The position numbers and the translations under genes were made by a program. A stretch of DNA of 64,000 nt from Eledone cirrhosa (Eukaryota), in the NCBI GenBank assembly GCA_964016885.1, contig OZ024742.1, forward strand, positions 264,926,001 through 264,990,000, read 5' to 3'. Of the stretch, positions 10,685 through 29,597 are shown piece by piece (within the stretch, counting starts at the first letter, position 1; each line of letters opens with the position of its first letter). The notes under the pieces were generated by a model. The model did no database searches. It was not told where the DNA came from and worked only from the letters and a program-made list of their open reading frames with translations.

Positions 10685-11240
10685 TCGAAGTTGCAGCCAC
10701 AGTACAGCAGATACTTATCAAATTGTTTGAGGCAGTCAAACTGAGTTTGAAGTGCGATGTTGCATGGTAGTGAAACATGGGCTGTGACTGCTGATAACAT
10801 GCATAGACTGGAGAGAAATGAAGCAACCATGCTTAGTTGGATGTGTAATGTAAGTGTGAGAGAGAGGCAGAGCTTGGATGAGTTGAGGGAGAAGCTGGGT
10901 TTAAGATGAATCCAAGGTGGTGTGCAGGAGAGAATACTGTGTTGGTATGTACATGTGATGTGCATAAACAATGATTGCTAGGTAAAGAAGTGCCAGGAAA
11001 TCTCAGTAGAAGGAATCCGCAAAAGAAGTAGACCAAAATATGGGCAGATGTTGTGAGAGCTGACCTCAAATCACTGAGACTTGCAAAGGAGATGACTCAC
11101 AAAGGGAACTCAATGAGTAGAGAGATGTTGTACTGAGAAGGATACGTCCAACTCATGCAAGTGTTGAAATATGGACATGTAAACCATAATGATGCTATAT
11201 ATTAGCATTGAAAATAAACGTTAAATGACGATGATGGTGA
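10685..11240 (+). mobile_element. Degraded RTE LINE 3' fragment
   Basis: AMLHGSETWAVTADNMHRLERNEATMLSWMC motif and RTE-type tail. Confidence 0.8.
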
Positions 11241-11260
11241 TAAACATATACATATATATA

Positions 11261-11368
11261 TACTAGAGTAAAGCATGTCCAGAGAATTATTTGATAATAT
11301 ATATACATCATCTCTAGATGATGTATATATATTATCAAATAATTCTCTGGACATGCTTTACTCTAGTA
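11261..11368. repeat. Perfect palindrome with 53-bp arms and 2-nt centre
   Basis: tactagagtaaagc..tacatcatct-ct-agatgatgta..gctttactctagta; extends imperfectly to ~11231-11402. Confidence 0.95.
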
Positions 11369-11559
11369 TATATATATATATATATATGTATATCACCATC
11401 ATTCCATCTAGTATTTCGCTCTGATTAATTTATTAATTCTCAATTGAGCCACAACATGAAAAGTTGCAAAAACACATATATACCTGTAACTCTGTTTAAT
11501 TGGTGTATGTGTAAATATTTATATATATATATATATATAGTAATAATAATAAATTTGAA

Positions 11560-13620
11560 GACTAAAATCCAAAGAGGGCTCGATAAGGATAAATATATAT
11601 CAAATATATAAGAACCGTAGAGCAAATATTTATTAAAATAACAGATTAAAGTTTAAGCAAAGAATCGCTGCTTTCACCCTTAACGGGATCTTCTGAAACT
11701 AGCAAAGTCAATCTGTAAACGCAGAACTGGATATTTCAAAACACGTTGCAACCGGAGGAAGACAGGAAGACGATACTTTGGTTCGTGGAAATGTTCGCTG
11801 GCAAAGAACGGGAAAAAACGAATATAATACGTCATTAATAGGAGCTGTGAAAAACAATTACGCGCAAAGACAGAACCACGTTTATGGTATAAAAGAGGTC
11901 GTAGACTAATGTTCTCTTAGGTGATTCATAGAGACGTTCTCTGGCAATGAACGAAAAAAACGAAGATAATACGTCATATGTGGAGCGTAGAGAACAATAG
12001 CACGCAAAGACAAAACCACGTAAATGGTATATCAGAAGTCGTAGACTAAAATTCTAACTAGGAGACCGAATGAATCTCCGCTACAGAGTTAAGAACAAAG
12101 TAAATAAATATAATACGGAAGTAATAGAAATAAATAAATACATACACGCAAACAAATTCGTACATACACAAGCATACGCAAAGCACTTACGATAGGTAAA
12201 CAAAACCACGCACATATAAATATGTGTGTGTGTATGCGTGTATACAAATAAATAATTATATAAACGTATATAAATAAATAAATACGTATATAACAAGCGC
12301 ACACACATACCTACATGTAAATACACGAATGTTCGGAGACGTAAGTCAACCAAAACATGAAGTACACATATACACACACCCTACCTACGTACGAACCAGC
12401 ATACTCACACAGAAGCAAAACTCCCGTATACACATAGCCAAACCATATGTACCAGAATATATAAAATTATACGCCATAACATAAACAATCAAATATACGT
12501 ACGAGAAGGTATACGTACCTTCACAAAACATACGGGTAATATATACTTACCTATGCAAATAAATAATGGTATAAACAAAACATATACTTAGCTCCCACAT
12601 CAAGACGTAAAATATCCACGTATAGATCGTACTATCCGTTAGGGTATAACGTGGGGCGGTAATACAGGAAAGTTTTGTGCAATTTATGTTTACAAGCCGA
12701 AATTGCCTCAGATTTTTTGTTTAAGATGTGGTCTGTGGCGTAGAGTATTTCCAGGGCCTCAGCGGCGCAGAGGTCACATGGTCTTTTATTTCCGTTATAC
12801 GATCTAGCCCTAGCTAGGATCTCCCAGTGTAACTTATATTGGGTGTGGTTGTCTTTTAGTCTCCAGATATAAGCTGAAAGTGACGTCATATTCCTTCTTA
12901 GAGGGTAACGAAAAGAATGGGTATGCATGTAAAGACGCTGCTTGAATCTATAGGCGGTTAACCCTATGTAGGCCCTACGGGACGTGGGTGTTACAACCTT
13001 ACATTTGTAGACAATGTTACTAGAGAGGCATTTCCCGGATAGGGGGGCAATCAACCCGATTCCTACAATTACAGTTAGTACTAACTACAGGGTTGCACGT
13101 GTTCCTACGGCTAGGTAGTTTAGCTAAATTTGAAGCAGTGATGTTATGTGCAAAGTTAGGAGTCGTAGAGTAAGACATTTTAATAGTATTTCTATTAAAA
13201 ATTTTACTATATTTATGTGTAGGGGGAAAATGCTTCGTAATAAGGGAAAGAAAGATCTTAGCTAATGGTGTGGCCACCTCCATATTATATGGTGGGTTAT
13301 ACCAACAAATGCGACGGGATCTATTTCTTCTAGGTCTAATTTCGTACTCTGTATATGCTACCTTATCGACAAATCCACTTCGAGCAAGAGCTTCATTGTA
13401 ATAAGTGGAATGGTCGTTGAAAATACGCTCGTTGGTGGAAAGACGGGAAAGCCTCAACGAAACGTTTCTTACCAGGTTCTTGGTTATGCTGGCAGGATGG
13501 TTGGAATGCTTACTTATGTAATTAAGCGTATCATTCGGCTTTCTATACGGGTAATACAACCCATTCAATAAATTGAGGGTAACGTCGAGGTAATTAACGA
13601 CCGAGAGATTGGCCTCAAAG
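11560..13620 (-). mobile_element. 5'-truncated Penelope-like element (RT thumb + GIY-YIG) with 3' non-coding region
   Basis: YRKPNDTLNYISKHSNHP, Cys linker CNCRNRVDCPLSGKC (one frameshift), NIVYKC..AYIGLT..FKQRLYMH, CDLCAAE..LNKKSE. Confidence 0.9.
11650..11700 (-). ncRNA. Candidate variant type I hammerhead ribozyme
   Basis: AGUUU CAGAAGA U-CCC guuaa GGG-U GAAA GCA..UGC UU AAACU. Stems I and III close; has a U4A variant and a U.U at the base of stem II. Confidence 0.5.
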
Positions 13621-14877
13621 GTACATACATATATACGTACATATGTTTACATCAGCTTTTCCATAATTGTGTGGATTGGATGAGATCCTTTCTGACAGGT
13701 TTTCTATGTTCAGATGCCTTAGCTAATGCCATACTTCATGTATCCTTATTTTTAGAATAGGTTCACTGTATCTCTATATGTCTAGGTAACTAAAAGTATT
13801 GGCATATAGAAGAGTGTCTGACCATAAATCACTGCCTCAAAATGTCTCATTCAAAGCCATGCTAACAGAAAAGCAGGCATAAAAACGATGAAAACAATGA
13901 AAACTATTCACATTTTCCTTTAGGCAGTAGACTTGACATCTACTTAGCAATCAGTTGATCTAATAGTTTGTGTTCTAGATTTTATTTAGCTTTCAGTTTA
14001 CTACATAAAACATTTATATTGTTAAAACCATTTCTATTGTTGATTCACTCTTGTTTGACTTTTTGTTGTTAATTTGTTCACCTGAAATTATTCACTACTT
14101 TTATCTGTCAGTATTATTTTATGCTACTTCTCTTTGATCCTGTTGTACTGGAGTTGGTCACCTGACAGCAGGTGACAATTACTTGCAAAATTCAAAGAAG
14201 CAATCACAGTCATTTAATCAAAGTTTATATTTGTAATTTTAAGTTTTATTTTTAGTCCTGTTTTGTTTTGTTTTCCTTTTCTGCTTTTTTACCCTAGCCA
14301 GTATATGACATGTGCTCACTTCTATACCTTAACTGTCTACATTAAATATTTTCTTTATCTAAAACTGGTTTTAACTGGTCTTTTAAGTTTCTATACATCT
14401 GAAATCCTCCATATAAAATATGCTTGGGTATTTTCCCACATTTTTACTTTTACCTTCTATCCATACAACAGTACAAGAGAATTAAAAAAAAAAAACTTCG
14501 TAAAAAAAAGCAATAGAGACAGTCTCAATGGGAAATACTACTAATGATACTATATTTTCATGGTGGAGGGCAATGAATTGGCAAAGTCATTAGAATGTCA
14601 GATAGAATGCTTTACATCACTCATTCCAGATCTCTGTGCTCGAAGTTCAAATCCTGCCGAGATCAGTCTTAACTTTCATCCGTTTGAAGTCGATAAAAAA
14701 ATTACCAGTCCAGTGCCATGATTGATTCTTCTCTCTCTCTCTATGGAAGAAATTGACTGTGTTCAAACTTAGAGTGGGAATGAGCTCTGCCAGGTTTAAA
14801 ATGCCAAAGTCATATCATTTGTCACTAGTGCCCTGACAACTCCATCAGTAAGGATAAATACATATATATTTTTTCTT

Positions 14878-20599: not shown

Positions 20600-20619
20600 G
20601 TCTTTATTTTGTCCTTAAT

Positions 20620-21433
20620 TATTAGTTGTGATGTTGCTATTCCACCCATGTTTTCTGCTTAATTTTGGTTGGAGTTCATTTATATTTGTCGCCTCTGTGA
20701 TTTGTCTGAACATTGCATCTTTTTTGTGTGAGGATATAATTTTTATCTCTATGTTCTCTGATGTGCCCCTATGTTCTATTTTGGCATGTTGGTAGAGTAC
20801 TGATGAGTTTTTCCCATCCTGGATTTCCTGCCAGTGTTCACTTATCCTTTCTCCTATGCTACGGACTGTTTCACCTATGTATCTTGTGTTCTTATTCCTA
20901 CACTGTTCCTCAGTACATCTTATGCTATATACTGCGTTCCTAGTTTTGCAGTTAGTTTGCGGGTTTAGCTTGCAGACTATGCATTTCCTATCAGTGCAGG
21001 GCTTCTTTGAAATGGGTATGTTTTGCTCATTAGGGTTTTTATGGGAATACCTGGTCTTTCAACTATCTTAATATTTAATTTGAGCTTGTCTATGGCCCTT
21101 CTAGATCTATAACCTAGTTCGCCTTTAGGGGTTGTATTGACCAACATTACCCTCTGGTATTTATTGCTATCATACCTTGAGTTGATTTTATTTGCCTTAT
21201 TCCTAATCCTTTCTATTCTATTCTATTCCAAAATTTGCTCCTATACATGGGGCAGGTTACATTTGCATCATTTTCTACATTATTTTCTATGCCCATTTGG
21301 ACCTGGGTCCTTTATATACCCTGATCTTGTCTCTCTGATTGTAGCCAGAGAACTGCATGCGGTGGATGAAGTGTTGTATGTGTCTCTCTAATTCTTTAGG
21401 GTTACACATGTGGGACACGTTCTTCATCACTCT

Positions 21434-25403: not shown

Positions 25404-25440
25404 ATCTTAATGTTTCGGACATATTCCTTCATCAGAAAAA
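25404..25440 (-). ncRNA. Decayed minimal hammerhead-like motif
   Basis: uuuu CUGAUGA a GGA auaug UCC GAAAC auu aaga; canonical core but broken stem III. Confidence 0.35.
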
Positions 25441-25552
25441 GTTAGAAATAGAAGATAAATAAAAAGAATAGAGTGAGAAAAGGAAGGAACGGGGAAAAAT
25501 GAGGAAAACAAAAAGGGAGAAAAAGACACATGTGCATATTTAGTTTGCCATT

Positions 25553-25592
<40 letters not shown>

Positions 25593-25595
25593 AAT

Positions 25596-26705
25596 GAGGA
25601 ATTCCAGATACAAGTAGGAGTACATCAGCGTTCGGTCCTCAGCCCGCTCTTGTTCATTATAGTCCTCCAAGCCATAACAGAGGAGTTTAAGACTGGCTGC
25701 CCATGGGAAATTCTCTATGCTGACAATCTAGTTCTTATAGCAGAATTAGTAGAGGAGCTAGAGAATAAATTCTGGCTATGGACACAGCAGTTGGAATTAA
25801 GAAGACTGAGTGTAAACCTAGCTAAGACAAAAGTGTTGATAAGTAGAAAAGAGGACAAAACACTGATTCCGTCAGGGAAATGGCCATGTTCGATATGTAG
25901 AAAAGGAACTGGCATAAATTCTATAGAATGTACACAATGCAGATCATGGGTTCACAAGAGATGTAGTGGGATAGCAGGCAAACTAAAAAGTAGGGAAAAA
26001 TGCATATGCAGTAGATGTACAGGGAACTTTGACAGTAGAAGTCGCAGTGATAGACACATTTTTCAAATGCAGGCAGGTGCTATAGAAGTGGTGGATAGCT
26101 TCCGGTACCTAGGAGATCAGATTAGTATGGAAAGGGGTGTTCCGAGGCCATAGTATCTAGAATAAGCATGGGTTGGAAGAAGTTTAGGGAGCTGCTTCCT
26201 CTGTTGACAAAGAAAGGTTTCTTGCTGCGTACGAAAGGCCGGTTGTATGATGCCTGTGTGAGATGCACGATGCTGCATGGTAGTGAGACATGGGCAGCAA
26301 CTGCAGAGGATATGCAAGGGCTGGAGAGAAATGAAACAAGCATGCTCCATTGGATGTGTAATGTCAAGGTACGTGAATGACCAACCATGGATGAGTTGAG
26401 AGAGAAACTGCATATAAGAGGTATAAGTTGTAGTGTGCGTGAGAGAAGACTGCGATGGTACGGACATGTGATGCGCATGGAGGATGATCACTGGGTAAAG
26501 AAGTGCCAAGAAATGCCAGTAGAAGGAAGATGCAGTAAAGAAAGACCATGAAAAACATGGGTGGAGGTGGTGAGCGCAGACCTCAAATTGCTGAAGCTCA
26601 CAGAGGAGATGACGAAGGACCGTGACAAGTGGAGAGATACTGTGCTGAATAGGACCCGTCCAACCCTTGCAAGCAGGGAAAAGCAGACGTAATATGATGA
26701 TGATA
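25596..26705 (+). mobile_element. RTE LINE 3' fragment, inverted relative to 23681-24791
   Basis: Same family as the neighbouring copy (ORFs 25650-26153 and 26168-26380), with stops. Confidence 0.92.
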
Positions 26706-27019: not shown

Positions 27020-28945
27020 CTAGCAGAATGGCCAAGCGTTGATCGGGATTCTAAACATAGATAGGCATGTTTATCCCTCCTTTCTGAAGCAGTTTCGTCG
27101 TATGTTCACCAATTGATGCAGAAGTCCTAATAAAAAGTAAAGTCGCCTTGGGTGAATAGGCAATAACTTTCCATTAAGATTTTTCAAAAGCATGTAATTG
27201 CGTTCCCTCTCTTTTTTGTTGTTGTTTTTGCTGCTGTTGGTGTGATAGTGGCCGTTGGTTGTACTACTAACACAGCCTCGTCCTTCTTCAGCCAATCGTG
27301 TATATCCCCTTCTGCTTCATCAGCAATGAGAACAATATTTGCTCTAGGGTTCTTATATATTTGATATATATTCATCCTTATCGAGCCCAGTGAAATAAAT
27401 ACGTTTGTTTATATCTTGTTATTGTGTATGCAAAAATATCTGTACACGAATATATAATTATATATCCCTGCGAAGATGCCTCTCCAGGAAACCCGGGAAA
27501 TCGACTGACGCGTGCTCCCTCAGAAACTGCCCGATGTGCCGTACGAACTGTTGCCTACGCACATACGTCGTGTATAAGGGAGAATGTAACAAGTGCAACC
27601 ACTACTATATAGGTAGCACAATCCGGATGTGTAGCAGCCGGATCAAGGAGCACATCAACACCAGGGCCTCGTCTTTCCAGAAATACATAACCAAATGCGG
27701 AAACAAAGACGGAAGGCCGATTGTCACAGTGCTAGCGACGGAACGAAACGTCGGCACATTACAAATCAAGGAAGCACTTTGGATCAAACGCCTAGGGCCA
27801 CAAATAAATAACCGATCCGAGAGAAGCGAAATGAGGTGGTTGGTTTAAATAAACAAATGAAGCAACAACACACGCACACACACACGCAAGCGAGACAGCA
27901 ACACACGCACACACACACAGTAGCATTCCACCATACAAATATACTACACTGTTAATACAGACAAATGAGGCAACACACGCACACAAGCGAGACAACAACA
28001 CACGCACACACACACACAGTAGCATTCACCAAACAGGCAGGGAATAGTACCACCACCACACACTATTCAACATTGCTAATACAGAAACCAGCACGGGCAG
28101 ATAATACAATGGATTGACAGCTAACGCCACCCCACTCCCACAATTAAAAGAACAATTTTGGCCGCCGACCTCTGCTTCACCGACCCCATTTCACGCGCGT
28201 GCGCATTCTGCTAAATACCTCAGATATTCAAAACAACGAACAGCGGAGGACACGTATCACTCCATTCCGACAGATAACCCCCCACCCCGGAAAACCCCCA
28301 GTTGATGGATGTGAATCCGAAATATAAGGACAATTAAATCTCTCCTAAGGTAACTCTATCTCGTGTTATTATTTTTATTTTTTACGCTCTTTCCTACGTT
28401 CTTCTACACACTATACATCTCATTCTACATTCACTTACATCTCTCTCCCTACCACCAGATCTTGTTACCCGGAGAATTACCCATCTGTATTGTTGAGGCT
28501 TCCAAAACGACCTAAAGAAAATATATCTAATTATATATATATATATATTAAAAGAACATTAAAGTTTAAGCAAAGAATCGCTGCTTTCAGCCTTAACGGG
28601 ATCTTCTGAAACTAAAAAATCAATCTGGGAACGCAGAAGTAAATATTTCGAAAAATGTTACACACTATATATATATATATACACACACACTATATATACA
28701 TATATACACACACACACACAGATAGTGTCATAATGTCGTAATGCAGACAGCCAGACATACAGACAGATATTACAGCTATCTAATGCGGTCCCTAGGACTT
28801 CGAAAATTTGAAATATTCTTTGCTCAAAACACTCACACGACCATAAGTATTATATGTGTAAAGTTTGAAAAAAATCGGTTGGGTGGTTCTCGAGTTTTAG
28901 GGAGTCAGACAAACAGACAGAGATTCTCTGTTTTAGATATATAGA
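27020..28945 (-). mobile_element. Non-autonomous Helitron (copy 1) with a nested PLE fragment
   Basis: Minus strand reads TCtatatatctaaaacagagaat at the 5' end and cccgatcaacgcttggccattctgCTAG|T at the 3' end. Confidence 0.8.
27466..28527 (+). mobile_element. Penelope-like 3' fragment (GIY-YIG) inserted in the Helitron
   Basis: CPMC..VVYKGECNKCNHYYIGSTIR..RIKEH..LQIKEALWI..PQINNRSE; flanked by taattatatat; absent from Helitron copy 2. Confidence 0.85.
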
Positions 28946-29226
28946 CTAGCAGAATGGCCCAGCATTGCTCGGGATTTGCTCTAGGGTTCTTATATATTTG
29001 ATATATATTTATCTTTATCGAGCCTCGTAAAATAAATACGTTTGTTTCTATTTTGTTTTTGTGTATGCAAAAATATCTGTGCACGAATATATAATTATAT
29101 ATATATATATTAAAATAACAGATTAAAGTTTCAGCAAGGAATCGCTGCTTTCACCCTTAACGGGATCTTCTGAAACTAAAGAAATCAATCTGTGAACGCA
29201 GAAGTAAATATTTTGAAAAATGTTAC

Positions 29227-29278
<52 letters not shown>

Positions 29279-29597
29279 ATATACATATGTACACTCACAC
29301 ACAGATAGTGTCATAATGTCGTAATGCAGACAGATATTACAAGGGCGTGACATCATAGCTATGTATCTATCTAAAAAGACAGACTAAGAATTATAGAGAG
29401 ATCGCTAAACGGCGCCTAATGCGGTCCCTAGGGCATTGAAAATTTGAAATATTTTTGCTCAAAATACTCACACAACCAGACCAGAAGTATTACATGTGTA
29501 AAGTTTGAAAACAATTAGTTGAGTGGTTCTCGACTTTTAGGGAGTCAGAGAGACAGACAGATAGACAGACAGACATTCTCTGTTTTAGATATATAGA
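28946..29597 (-). mobile_element. Non-autonomous Helitron (copy 2), head-to-tail with copy 1
   Basis: Same 5' TC end; hairpin cccgagcaatgctggg then CTAG, directly abutting the TC of copy 1. Confidence 0.82.

What the first reader, a model, noticed from the sequence alone, without database searches (positions are those of the whole stretch)
27020..29597. Tandem Helitrons carry a Penelope-derived hammerhead-like cassette
Seen: both Helitron copies contain the 51-nt motif found in the PLE 3' region at 11650-11700 (copies at 28563-28613 and 29127-29177). They also carry the adjacent PLE segment atatttgctcta..tatcgagc, inverted relative to its orientation at 11578-11629. Known: PLE termini often carry minimal type I hammerheads, and Helitrons capture foreign DNA. 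Inference: a rolling-circle DNA transposon is spreading a retroelement ribozyme. The predicted cleavage triplet is CUU in two copies and CUG (non-cleavable) in the third.
Basis: partly seen in the sequence, partly recalled or inferred. Interest (0 to 1): 0.72.

Follow-up and report, generated by a model that had tools for sequence, protein, structure and literature searches.

The report
Helitron spreads crippled Penelope hammerhead
A small rolling-circle jumping gene has copied the end piece of a Penelope-type retrotransposon, including its hammerhead RNA motif, into thousands of places in this animal genome, but the motif carries a fixed change in its catalytic core and is likely a non-cutting passenger that probably marks the retrotransposon's transcription start.

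Summary
Observation confirmed. Two head-to-tail non-autonomous Helitrons (minus strand, TC...CTAG) each carry a ~125-bp end of a Hydra-clade Penelope-like element (PLE) with the 51-nt motif, plus an inverted piece of that PLE's tail. It is no one-off: 22 of 29 Helitrons fetched by their 5' end hold the whole motif, mostly with one shared breakpoint, nearly identical to PLE subfamily B. The motif has the architecture of published Hydra hammerheads, but core position 4 is A instead of U in over 99% of copies, the hammerhead fold is not favoured, no compensatory changes were seen, and 19 of 47 Helitron copies share a helix-breaking change. The PLE itself, not the Helitron, made most copies (12 of 100 sampled are Helitron-linked). 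PLE 5' junctions pile up at the motif's first bases (23 of 100), with an extra G at +1, and not at the cleavage site (1 of 100), so integrated RNAs likely began at an uncut hammerhead. Best reading: a nested PLE insertion amplified as passive cargo; cleavage untested. The scan noted another Helitron-borne hammerhead (a retrozyme) on other DNA of this genome.

The parts
27020..28945 (-). Non-autonomous Helitron copy A (long form), TC start at 28945, hairpin and CTAG end at 27020
   Evidence: long-form relatives at 93-95%
28946..29597 (-). Non-autonomous Helitron copy B (short form, 652 bp), TC start at 29597 after A, CTAG end abutting copy A's TC
28541..28662 (-). PLE pLTR-end cassette in copy A (-49 to +75 around the inferred PLE transcription start), flanked by (TA)n
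29103..29227 (-). PLE pLTR-end cassette in copy B
28563..28613 (-). Hydra-type hammerhead homologue, A at core position 4 (28607), one helix II pair broken, CUU triplet
29127..29177 (-). Hydra-type hammerhead homologue, A at core position 4 (29171), private CUG triplet
27334..27388 (+). First ~55 nt of the PLE tail, inverted relative to the cassette (copy A)
28974..29024 (+). First ~50 nt of the PLE tail, inverted (copy B)
27466..28527 (+). Later nested fragment of an unrelated PLE (GIY-YIG domain) in the (TA)n of copy A
   Evidence: Pfam PF01541 E 1e-4; no meaningful similarity to the Hydra ORF; boundaries read
11540..13650 (-). Donor-family Hydra-clade PLE (subfamily A), 5'-truncated and frameshifted: RT/EN 3' part, pLTR (~12600-11626), 86-88 nt tail (11625-11540)
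11650..11700 (-). Family-consensus motif in the PLE; position 11700 is the inferred capped RNA 5' end; predicted cut would fall after 11655

Best explanation
The two elements are members of a non-autonomous Helitron family that carries the 3' end of a Hydra-clade Penelope-like element, which likely retro-inserted into the progenitor's (TA)n and has since been copied as likely passive cargo; the hammerhead homologue inside it has a fixed U4-to-A core change and is predicted to cut poorly or not at all. Steps: (shown) the family has TC/CTAG ends and holds the cassette at one place and orientation; (shown) the cassette is nearly identical to PLE subfamily B and begins at a shared 5'-truncation point; (inferred) one insertion with an inverted tail, later trimmed to nested lengths, then amplified by rolling-circle transposition in trans; (inferred) the motif is conserved in the PLE because the transcript starts at its first base, so it overlaps the internal promoter and RNA 5' end; (inferred) it has no role in Helitron movement.
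For: Helitron anatomy: 77 of 82 3' ends are CTAG and 78 of 82 are followed by T; 69 of 79 5' ends are TC, 58 of 79 preceded by A. Cassette in 22 of 29 loci fetched by the TC end and 24 of 29 fetched by the 3' part (whole motif). Shared (TA)n-GTG|TGTAAC breakpoint in most of 77 Helitron-class rows. Helitron consensus differs from PLE-B at 2 of 125 and from PLE-A at 9 of 125 sites. The tail recurs just upstream of the ORF in tandem PLE copies, so it is PLE-native; two loci keep inverted tail joined to a longer 5'-truncated pLTR inside Helitron sequence. Crippling: 24,016 exact core matches versus 181 with non-A at position 4 (the patterns differ in length); all 26 Hydra rows of Craig File S2 have U there; single changes in CUGA give low activity (PMC9901934); hammerhead fold -4.8 vs MFE -8.8 kcal/mol, helix I pair probability under 0.1. 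No constraint in Helitrons: stems 5.1% and core 1.8% vs flank 2.3% substitution, 19 of 47 share an A-C mismatch in helix III versus 0 of 59 PLE copies, no compensatory pair. Uncut RNA: 23 of 100 5' junctions at 0..+10, 1 of 100 at the cut site; G precedes +1 in 16 of 17 ends versus 4 of 30 downstream junctions (my count). Cleavage is not needed for PLE insertion in vitro (PMC11167929).
Against: No cleavage assay and no RNA data. The motif is identical between PLE subfamilies A and B (0 of 51) while the upstream 193 nt differ at 23 sites (Fisher p 0.006), and subfamily C varies mainly in loops II and III and N7 (the 3' half was fixed by the search pattern), as expected for a fold still under selection; four public runs show no listed difference in 11626-11701 (4 rows not shown). 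The C15.2-G16.2 pair of Hydra hammerheads is flipped to G-C, keeping pairing. Some natural core variants keep activity (PMC3088659) and a PLE hammerhead can need its protein. Cut, uncapped RNA may simply not be retrotransposed. Three of the 16 G ends can be explained by the inverted partner, leaving 13 of 14 from 8 loci; RTs add non-templated G without a cap (PMC13000458); the cap reading is recalled knowledge. The 100-copy sample is the first 22 Mb of one contig.
Confidence: 0.68

Rival explanations
1. The U4A motif is a working, slow or protein-assisted natural hammerhead variant in the PLE, and intact Helitron copies disperse a cleavable RNA element.
For: Complete type I topology beyond chance; same spacing, extra U residues and U at the cut site as Hydra hammerheads; stems and core constant across subfamilies A, B, C while loops vary; U10.1-U11.1 is the best-tolerated mismatch; PAc hammerhead cuts only with protein; 12 of 47 Helitron copies keep all pairs and the core.
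Against: A4 in the CUGA turn; A4 creates a 5-bp pairing that hides GAAA in the MFE fold; folding z-scores 0.37, -1.07, -0.42; no two-sided change in 10 pairs over 13 rows; 1 of 100 junctions at the cut site; both window Helitron copies are individually damaged.
Confidence: 0.17
2. The cassette is retained in the Helitron because it works as a portable promoter (PLE internal promoter and start site) that fires towards the Helitron 3' end and into flanking DNA.
For: Junction peak and extra G place the start at the motif's first base; the Helitron keeps -49..+75 in all nested forms; in Drosophila Penelope about 47 nt from the start are required for expression (PMC2377424); the inverted tail is lost more often (14 of 21 complete elements lack it) than the cassette.
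Against: No transcription data; cassette-free derivatives exist (L114); retention may only reflect which master copies were active; a promoter is not needed by a non-autonomous Helitron.
Confidence: 0.1
3. Helitron copies gained the cassette many times independently because Hydra PLEs target (TA)n, so the Helitron is only a landing pad.
For: Hydra PLEs prefer (TA)n; several longer breakpoints occur; an unrelated PLE landed in copy A's (TA)n.
Against: One breakpoint and Helitron-specific substitutions are shared by most copies; 1,344 exact matches to that junction.
Confidence: 0.03
4. The block or the tail came from the Helitron and was picked up by the PLE.
For: The tail piece is contiguous with Helitron-internal sequence near the 3' end.
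Against: The older subfamily C has homologous motif and tail in PLE context; the motif matches Hydra hammerheads of other phyla; the Helitron copy is truncated and B-like.
Confidence: 0.02

Closest known systems
Hydra-clade PLE hammerheads (Craig et al. 2021, PMC8557442; section 11, passages and supplement parts 1-2 read)
   Same: Type I, sense strand, near the pLTR 3' end; CNGA(A/U)GA-U, short helix II, U-GAA, 4-bp helix III, U at the cut site, 5-bp helix I; donor ORF has DKT, RWR, CxCx5C, CxxC/CxH, C-terminal EN, (TA)n targets.
   Different: A instead of U at position 4; G15.2-C16.2 (CUU) instead of C-G (GUH in all 26 rows); longer loop III; a copy rides in a Helitron.
Minimal PLE hammerheads (Cervera and de la Pena 2014, PMC4209133; parts 1-2 of 4 read)
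   Same: PLE pLTR location, extra nucleotide after A9, low expected activity.
   Different: Those lack a stable helix III, keep G10.1-C11.1 and a palindromic 15.2-16.2 for dimer folding; this motif has a full helix III, a U-U closure and a non-palindromic loop.
Canonical non-autonomous Helitrons with captured fragments (PMC6431247 passages; end features recalled)
   Same: TC start, hairpin plus CTAG end, A|T site, no obvious duplication, head-to-tail arrays, internal foreign DNA.
   Different: Cargo sits mid-element in a microsatellite and looks like a nested retro-insertion, not 3' terminator bypass; cargo is a PLE terminus with a hammerhead homologue.
Anolis Poseidon PAc (Frangieh et al. 2024, PMC11167929; parts 1-2 of 4 read)
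   Same: pLTR plus optional tail from two RT start sites; uncut RNA as the main insertion substrate.
   Different: PAc hammerhead has an intact core, cuts with protein help and overlaps the ORF start; here it lies ~190 nt before the ORF and has U4A.

Membership tests
Helitron (non-autonomous, HLE1 type) | 5' TC and 3' CTRR ends | tested here: met
   69 of 79 starts TC, 77 of 82 ends CTAG
Helitron (non-autonomous, HLE1 type) | GC-rich hairpin just before the 3' end | tested here: met
   CCCG...CGGG stem 11 nt before the end in the listed ends; imperfect in both window copies
Helitron (non-autonomous, HLE1 type) | A|T insertion without target duplication | tested here: met
   78 of 82 followed by T, 58 of 79 preceded by A (17 by G, largely CTAG|TC arrays); no consistent duplication by eye in 56 listed pairs, some redundant
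Helitron (non-autonomous, HLE1 type) | Mobilised by a RepHel partner with matching ends | tested here: inconclusive
   A broken PIF1 helicase ORF at L122 ends in a similar hairpin and TCTGCTAG; its 5' end was not found; met by chance, not searched for
Hydra-clade PLE (donor) | Single RT-EN ORF with DKT, RWK-like, CxCx5C linker, no CCHH | tested here: met
   713-aa ORF P0001 read by eye against section 11; RWR in place of RWK; no tree built; Pfam silent
Hydra-clade PLE (donor) | Partial tandems (pLTR), tail, inverted 5'-truncated copies, (TA)n targets | tested here: met
   unit about 3.3 kb, slightly above the <3 kb typical of the clade
Type I hammerhead ribozyme | Three helices around the core in type I order | tested here: met
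   5, 3 and 4-5 bp; 0 of 500 and 1 of 2000 shuffles
Type I hammerhead ribozyme | Core CUGANGA / GAAA | tested here: not met
   CAGANGA in over 99% of copies and in subfamily C
Type I hammerhead ribozyme | NUH triplet | tested here: met
   CUU in 57 of 59 PLE and 41 of 47 Helitron copies; not met in window copy B
Type I hammerhead ribozyme | Covariation of helices | tested here: inconclusive
   No two-sided change, but too little variation to test; one flipped pair relative to published Hydra rows
Type I hammerhead ribozyme | Site-specific self-cleavage | not testable with these tools
   Indirect only: 1 of 100 5' junctions at the site
Minimal dimeric PLE hammerhead | No stable helix III, palindromic 15.2-16.2, G10.1-C11.1 | tested here: not met

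The most novel reading that the evidence does not exclude
In a Hydra PLE family with about 48,000 pLTR ends, the hammerhead has become the capped 5' leader of the transcript with a fixed U4A switch that keeps it uncut or cuts only with the element's protein; a Helitron has lifted this start-site-plus-ribozyme module and scattered thousands of working copies that start or process host-side transcripts.
Probability: 0.2. Interest if true: 0.7.

Novelty: new variant of a known kind. Interest (0 to 1): 0.4.

Why it matters
What hammerheads do for Penelope-like elements is an open question (Craig 2021 suggests they may be dispensable; Frangieh 2024 found cutting unnecessary in vitro). This family is a natural experiment: a young, very abundant PLE with intact 713-aa ORFs has fixed a core mutation, and its integration junctions point to RNAs that begin at the uncut motif. 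One assay (A4 versus U4) would tell whether the fold is kept for catalysis or for promoter and 5'-end function. The Helitron ride itself is an ordinary nested-element story, though it moves the module by a DNA route to a few thousand extra sites. A Helitron carrying a PLE hammerhead did not show in the listings of my three searches, which cover open-access text only.

Tried and rejected
Rfam scan: no hammerhead at E<=5. Search for a sister family with canonical U4: 1,045 matches, but most of the 30 inspected were head-to-head inversion junctions at the TTC(A/T)GAA palindrome or truncation junctions, not a U4 family. Minimal-hammerhead register (GAAA-GC-A-G) rejected: A at 16.1, G at 17, no helix I. 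No second hammerhead candidate in one full PLE unit on either strand (that copy's own motif is mutated). Idea that C3-A4-G5 is a splice acceptor completed to CUG by an upstream exon: the two strong GTAAGT donors in the pLTR do not end in CUG (read) and the inferred start lies downstream of them; dropped, not tested with RNA. The 290-nt extra segment of the long form gives only a short open frame; origin not identified, no homology search run on it. Sequencing runs: no RNA holder listed; contigs of runs X4-X6, X8-X10 were laid only to compare letters. Bacterial promoter scan is not relevant to an animal. One search dropped 13 of 100 places by over-strict de-duplication; one search repeats it on all 100 and supersedes its counts. 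Lunse et al. 2017 (PLE hammerhead dimers) was not held and was not read; it or closed supplements may describe position-4 variants. PMC11014351 passages held nothing on position 4; the search for 'U4A' found nothing relevant. No covariance model was built: too little variation.

Full report
Observation. The shared block is about 125 bp (11626-11750), and both Helitron copies read on the minus strand, 29597-28946 and 28945-27020, joined CTAG|TC. They are different subfamilies (81-93% alike over shared parts); copy A has a 290-nt extra segment and a later 1.06-kb fragment of an unrelated GIY-YIG PLE in its (TA)n.

The carrier. Among distinct ends in the loci fetched up to, 77 of 82 3' ends are CTAG, 78 of 82 are followed by T, 69 of 79 starts are TC and 58 of 79 follow an A; a short GC hairpin precedes the end, and 10 ends run straight into another start. 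This is a non-autonomous Helitron family. Of 29 other loci fetched by the 5' end alone, 22 hold the whole motif in line, 2 part of the block and 5 none; of 29 fetched by the 3' part, 24, 4 and 1. These are best-scoring hits, not a random draw. The inverted tail piece is less stable: 7 of 21 complete elements keep it. A broken PIF1-helicase Helitron with a similar 3' end was met at L122; it is only a candidate partner.

The donor. The element at 11540-13650 belongs to a young family (1.5% from consensus over the block) with full copies encoding a 713-aa ORF. DKT, RWR, CxCx5C, CxxC/CxH around the EN end and (TA)n targets match the Hydra clade by eye (PMC8557442 section 11; supplement passages); no tree was built. 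The 88-nt tail recurs directly upstream of the ORF in tandem copies, as described for PLE tails (PMC11167929), so the 'adjacent segment' is PLE-native. Three subfamilies were seen: A, B (2.9%) and an older C (7%, 5 copies; 202 exact matches to its diagnostic pattern).

Direction and route. The Helitron consensus differs from PLE-B at 2 of 125 sites and from PLE-A at 9. Most Helitron copies share one junction, (TA)n-GTG then PLE sequence 49 nt upstream of the motif. Some carry longer PLE pieces at the same place, and two loci keep an inverted tail joined to a longer 5'-truncated pLTR, the usual PLE insertion signature. I infer a PLE-B retro-insertion into the progenitor's microsatellite, later trimmed and rearranged, then amplified by the Helitron. 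End-bypass capture (PMC6431247 passage) would put cargo at the 3' end and does not fit the cassette.

Who spreads it. The 24-nt core has 24,016 exact matches and the pLTR end 47,932. Junction-diagnostic patterns give 1,344 Helitron-type and 10,521 PLE-type matches; exact matching undercounts older copies. In the first 100 places, 6 have the main Helitron junction, 5 a longer piece and 1 other Helitron sequence beside it (one 22-Mb stretch). So the Helitron holds roughly 3,000-6,000 copies by my estimate and the PLE made most of the rest.

Is it a hammerhead. By descent, yes. The layout (helix I 5 bp, CAGAAGA-U, helix II 3 bp, U-GAAA, helix III 4-5 bp, U at the cut site) matches File S2 of Craig et al., where by my count 14 of 26 Hydra rows have both extra U residues and 10 cut after U, and it is rare in shuffles. 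It is not the minimal dimer type (PMC4209133). But all 26 rows have U4, while here only 181 copies with the matching 5' flank have a non-A base, split among G, T and C like random decay. The 1,045 'CTGA' matches are mostly inversion or truncation junctions in the 30 inspected. Pairwise mutagenesis of a type III hammerhead found low activity for single changes in CUGA (PMC9901934 passages); U4A was not among the natural variants named in the section I read of PMC3088659, which does list tolerated ones including U10.1-U11.1. A4 also lets UUUCA pair with UGAAA, and the hammerhead fold is 4 kcal/mol above the minimum. That CUU is a weak and CUG a dead triplet is recalled, not from a call.

Selection. 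In 47 full Helitron copies not chosen by the cassette, 12 keep all pairs and the core against 48 of 59 PLE copies; 19 share one helix III mismatch; stems change no slower than flanks; nothing compensates. In the PLE lineage the motif is conserved (0 of 51 differences between A and B against 23 of 193 upstream, p 0.006), but so are the next 24 nt and the tail (0 of 24, 1 of 85), so the constraint is not specific to the fold. Subfamily C varies in loop II, loop III and N7, which favours a retained fold; no two-sided change was seen. Contigs of four public runs list no difference in 11626-11701 while many appear upstream.

Where the RNA starts. In the 100-place sample 23 5' junctions fall at motif positions 0..+10, against 4 in the 45 nt upstream (Helitron junctions at -46 to -50 lie outside that range) and 17 in the 44 nt downstream (p 4e-13 and 2e-7); 1 falls at the predicted cut. 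Where a copy starts exactly at +1 without templated bases, the base before it is G in 16 of 17 ends from 12 loci; three could come from an inverted partner, leaving 13 of 14; downstream junctions show G in 4 of 30 (my count). An extra G is the recalled mark of reverse transcription across a cap, and (T/C)AGTT resembles a recalled initiator; RT can also add G without a cap (PMC13000458 passage). Penelope uses an internal promoter just downstream of its start (PMC2377424 passages). I infer that the transcript starts at the first base of helix I and that integrated RNAs were uncut, which agrees with PMC11167929 and offers a non-catalytic reason for conservation. It does not prove that cutting never happens.

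Comparison and novelty. Each part is known: Hydra PLE hammerheads, non-autonomous Helitrons, nested elements. It works like passive cargo; membership of active hammerheads fails on the core. New are the family-wide U4A variant, the junction evidence for a start at helix I, and the Helitron ride, which did not show in the listings. The bioRxiv retrozyme paper (part 1 of 5 read) does not treat it in that part. Earlier scan notes describe a Hydra hammerhead in many copies and another Helitron-borne hammerhead in this genome; I did not check them, and sequence look-ups of this element returned nothing. Lunse et al. 2017 and closed supplements were not seen and may bear on position-4 variants.

Verdict. 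Observation confirmed, interpretation partly supported; new variant of a known kind; interest 0.40; about 0.2 that the module is functional in the bold sense.

Noticed in passing
genome-wide, e.g. L184, L187, L204: Hundreds of perfect head-to-head fold-backs of the PLE end are joined at the palindrome TTC(A/T)GAA centred on hammerhead position 4; the join recreates a canonical CUGAAGA on one strand, inside a long inverted repeat.
   Followed up: partly
window 28299-28325 (+): The nested unrelated PLE has a degenerate minimal-hammerhead-like stretch (CAGUUGA, U, GGAU/AUCC helix, GAAA-UA-UA); two core mismatches, family consensus not checked.
   Followed up: no
window 25407-25440 region (-), end of the ORF at 25407..25727: The translation ends in SDEGICPKH, which suggests a CUGACGA...CGAAAC minimal PLE hammerhead; DNA not read.
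   Followed up: no
window 11231-11402: A long near-perfect palindrome (92% over 176 nt) just outside the PLE tail; gives spurious miRNA matches in Rfam.
   Followed up: no
window 11779-11915 and 11922-12055: A 143-nt direct repeat (79%) inside the Hydra pLTR upstream of the motif.
   Followed up: no
L013, L065, L085 and others: A second Helitron family with a palindromic CTAG-footed end often sits directly in front of this family's TC start; matches earlier scan notes.
   Followed up: no
window 27050-27335: Extra 290-nt segment of the long Helitron form; subfamilies delete it at several fixed points; a 60-codon open frame on the minus strand, origin unknown.
   Followed up: partly
L122:2506-4180: Broken Helitron PIF1 helicase ORF ending in a hairpin and TCTGCTAG|T like this family's end; candidate autonomous partner.
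   Followed up: partly
window 20615-21058 (-): Another GIY-YIG-like PLE endonuclease fragment by eye; no Pfam hit.
   Followed up: no
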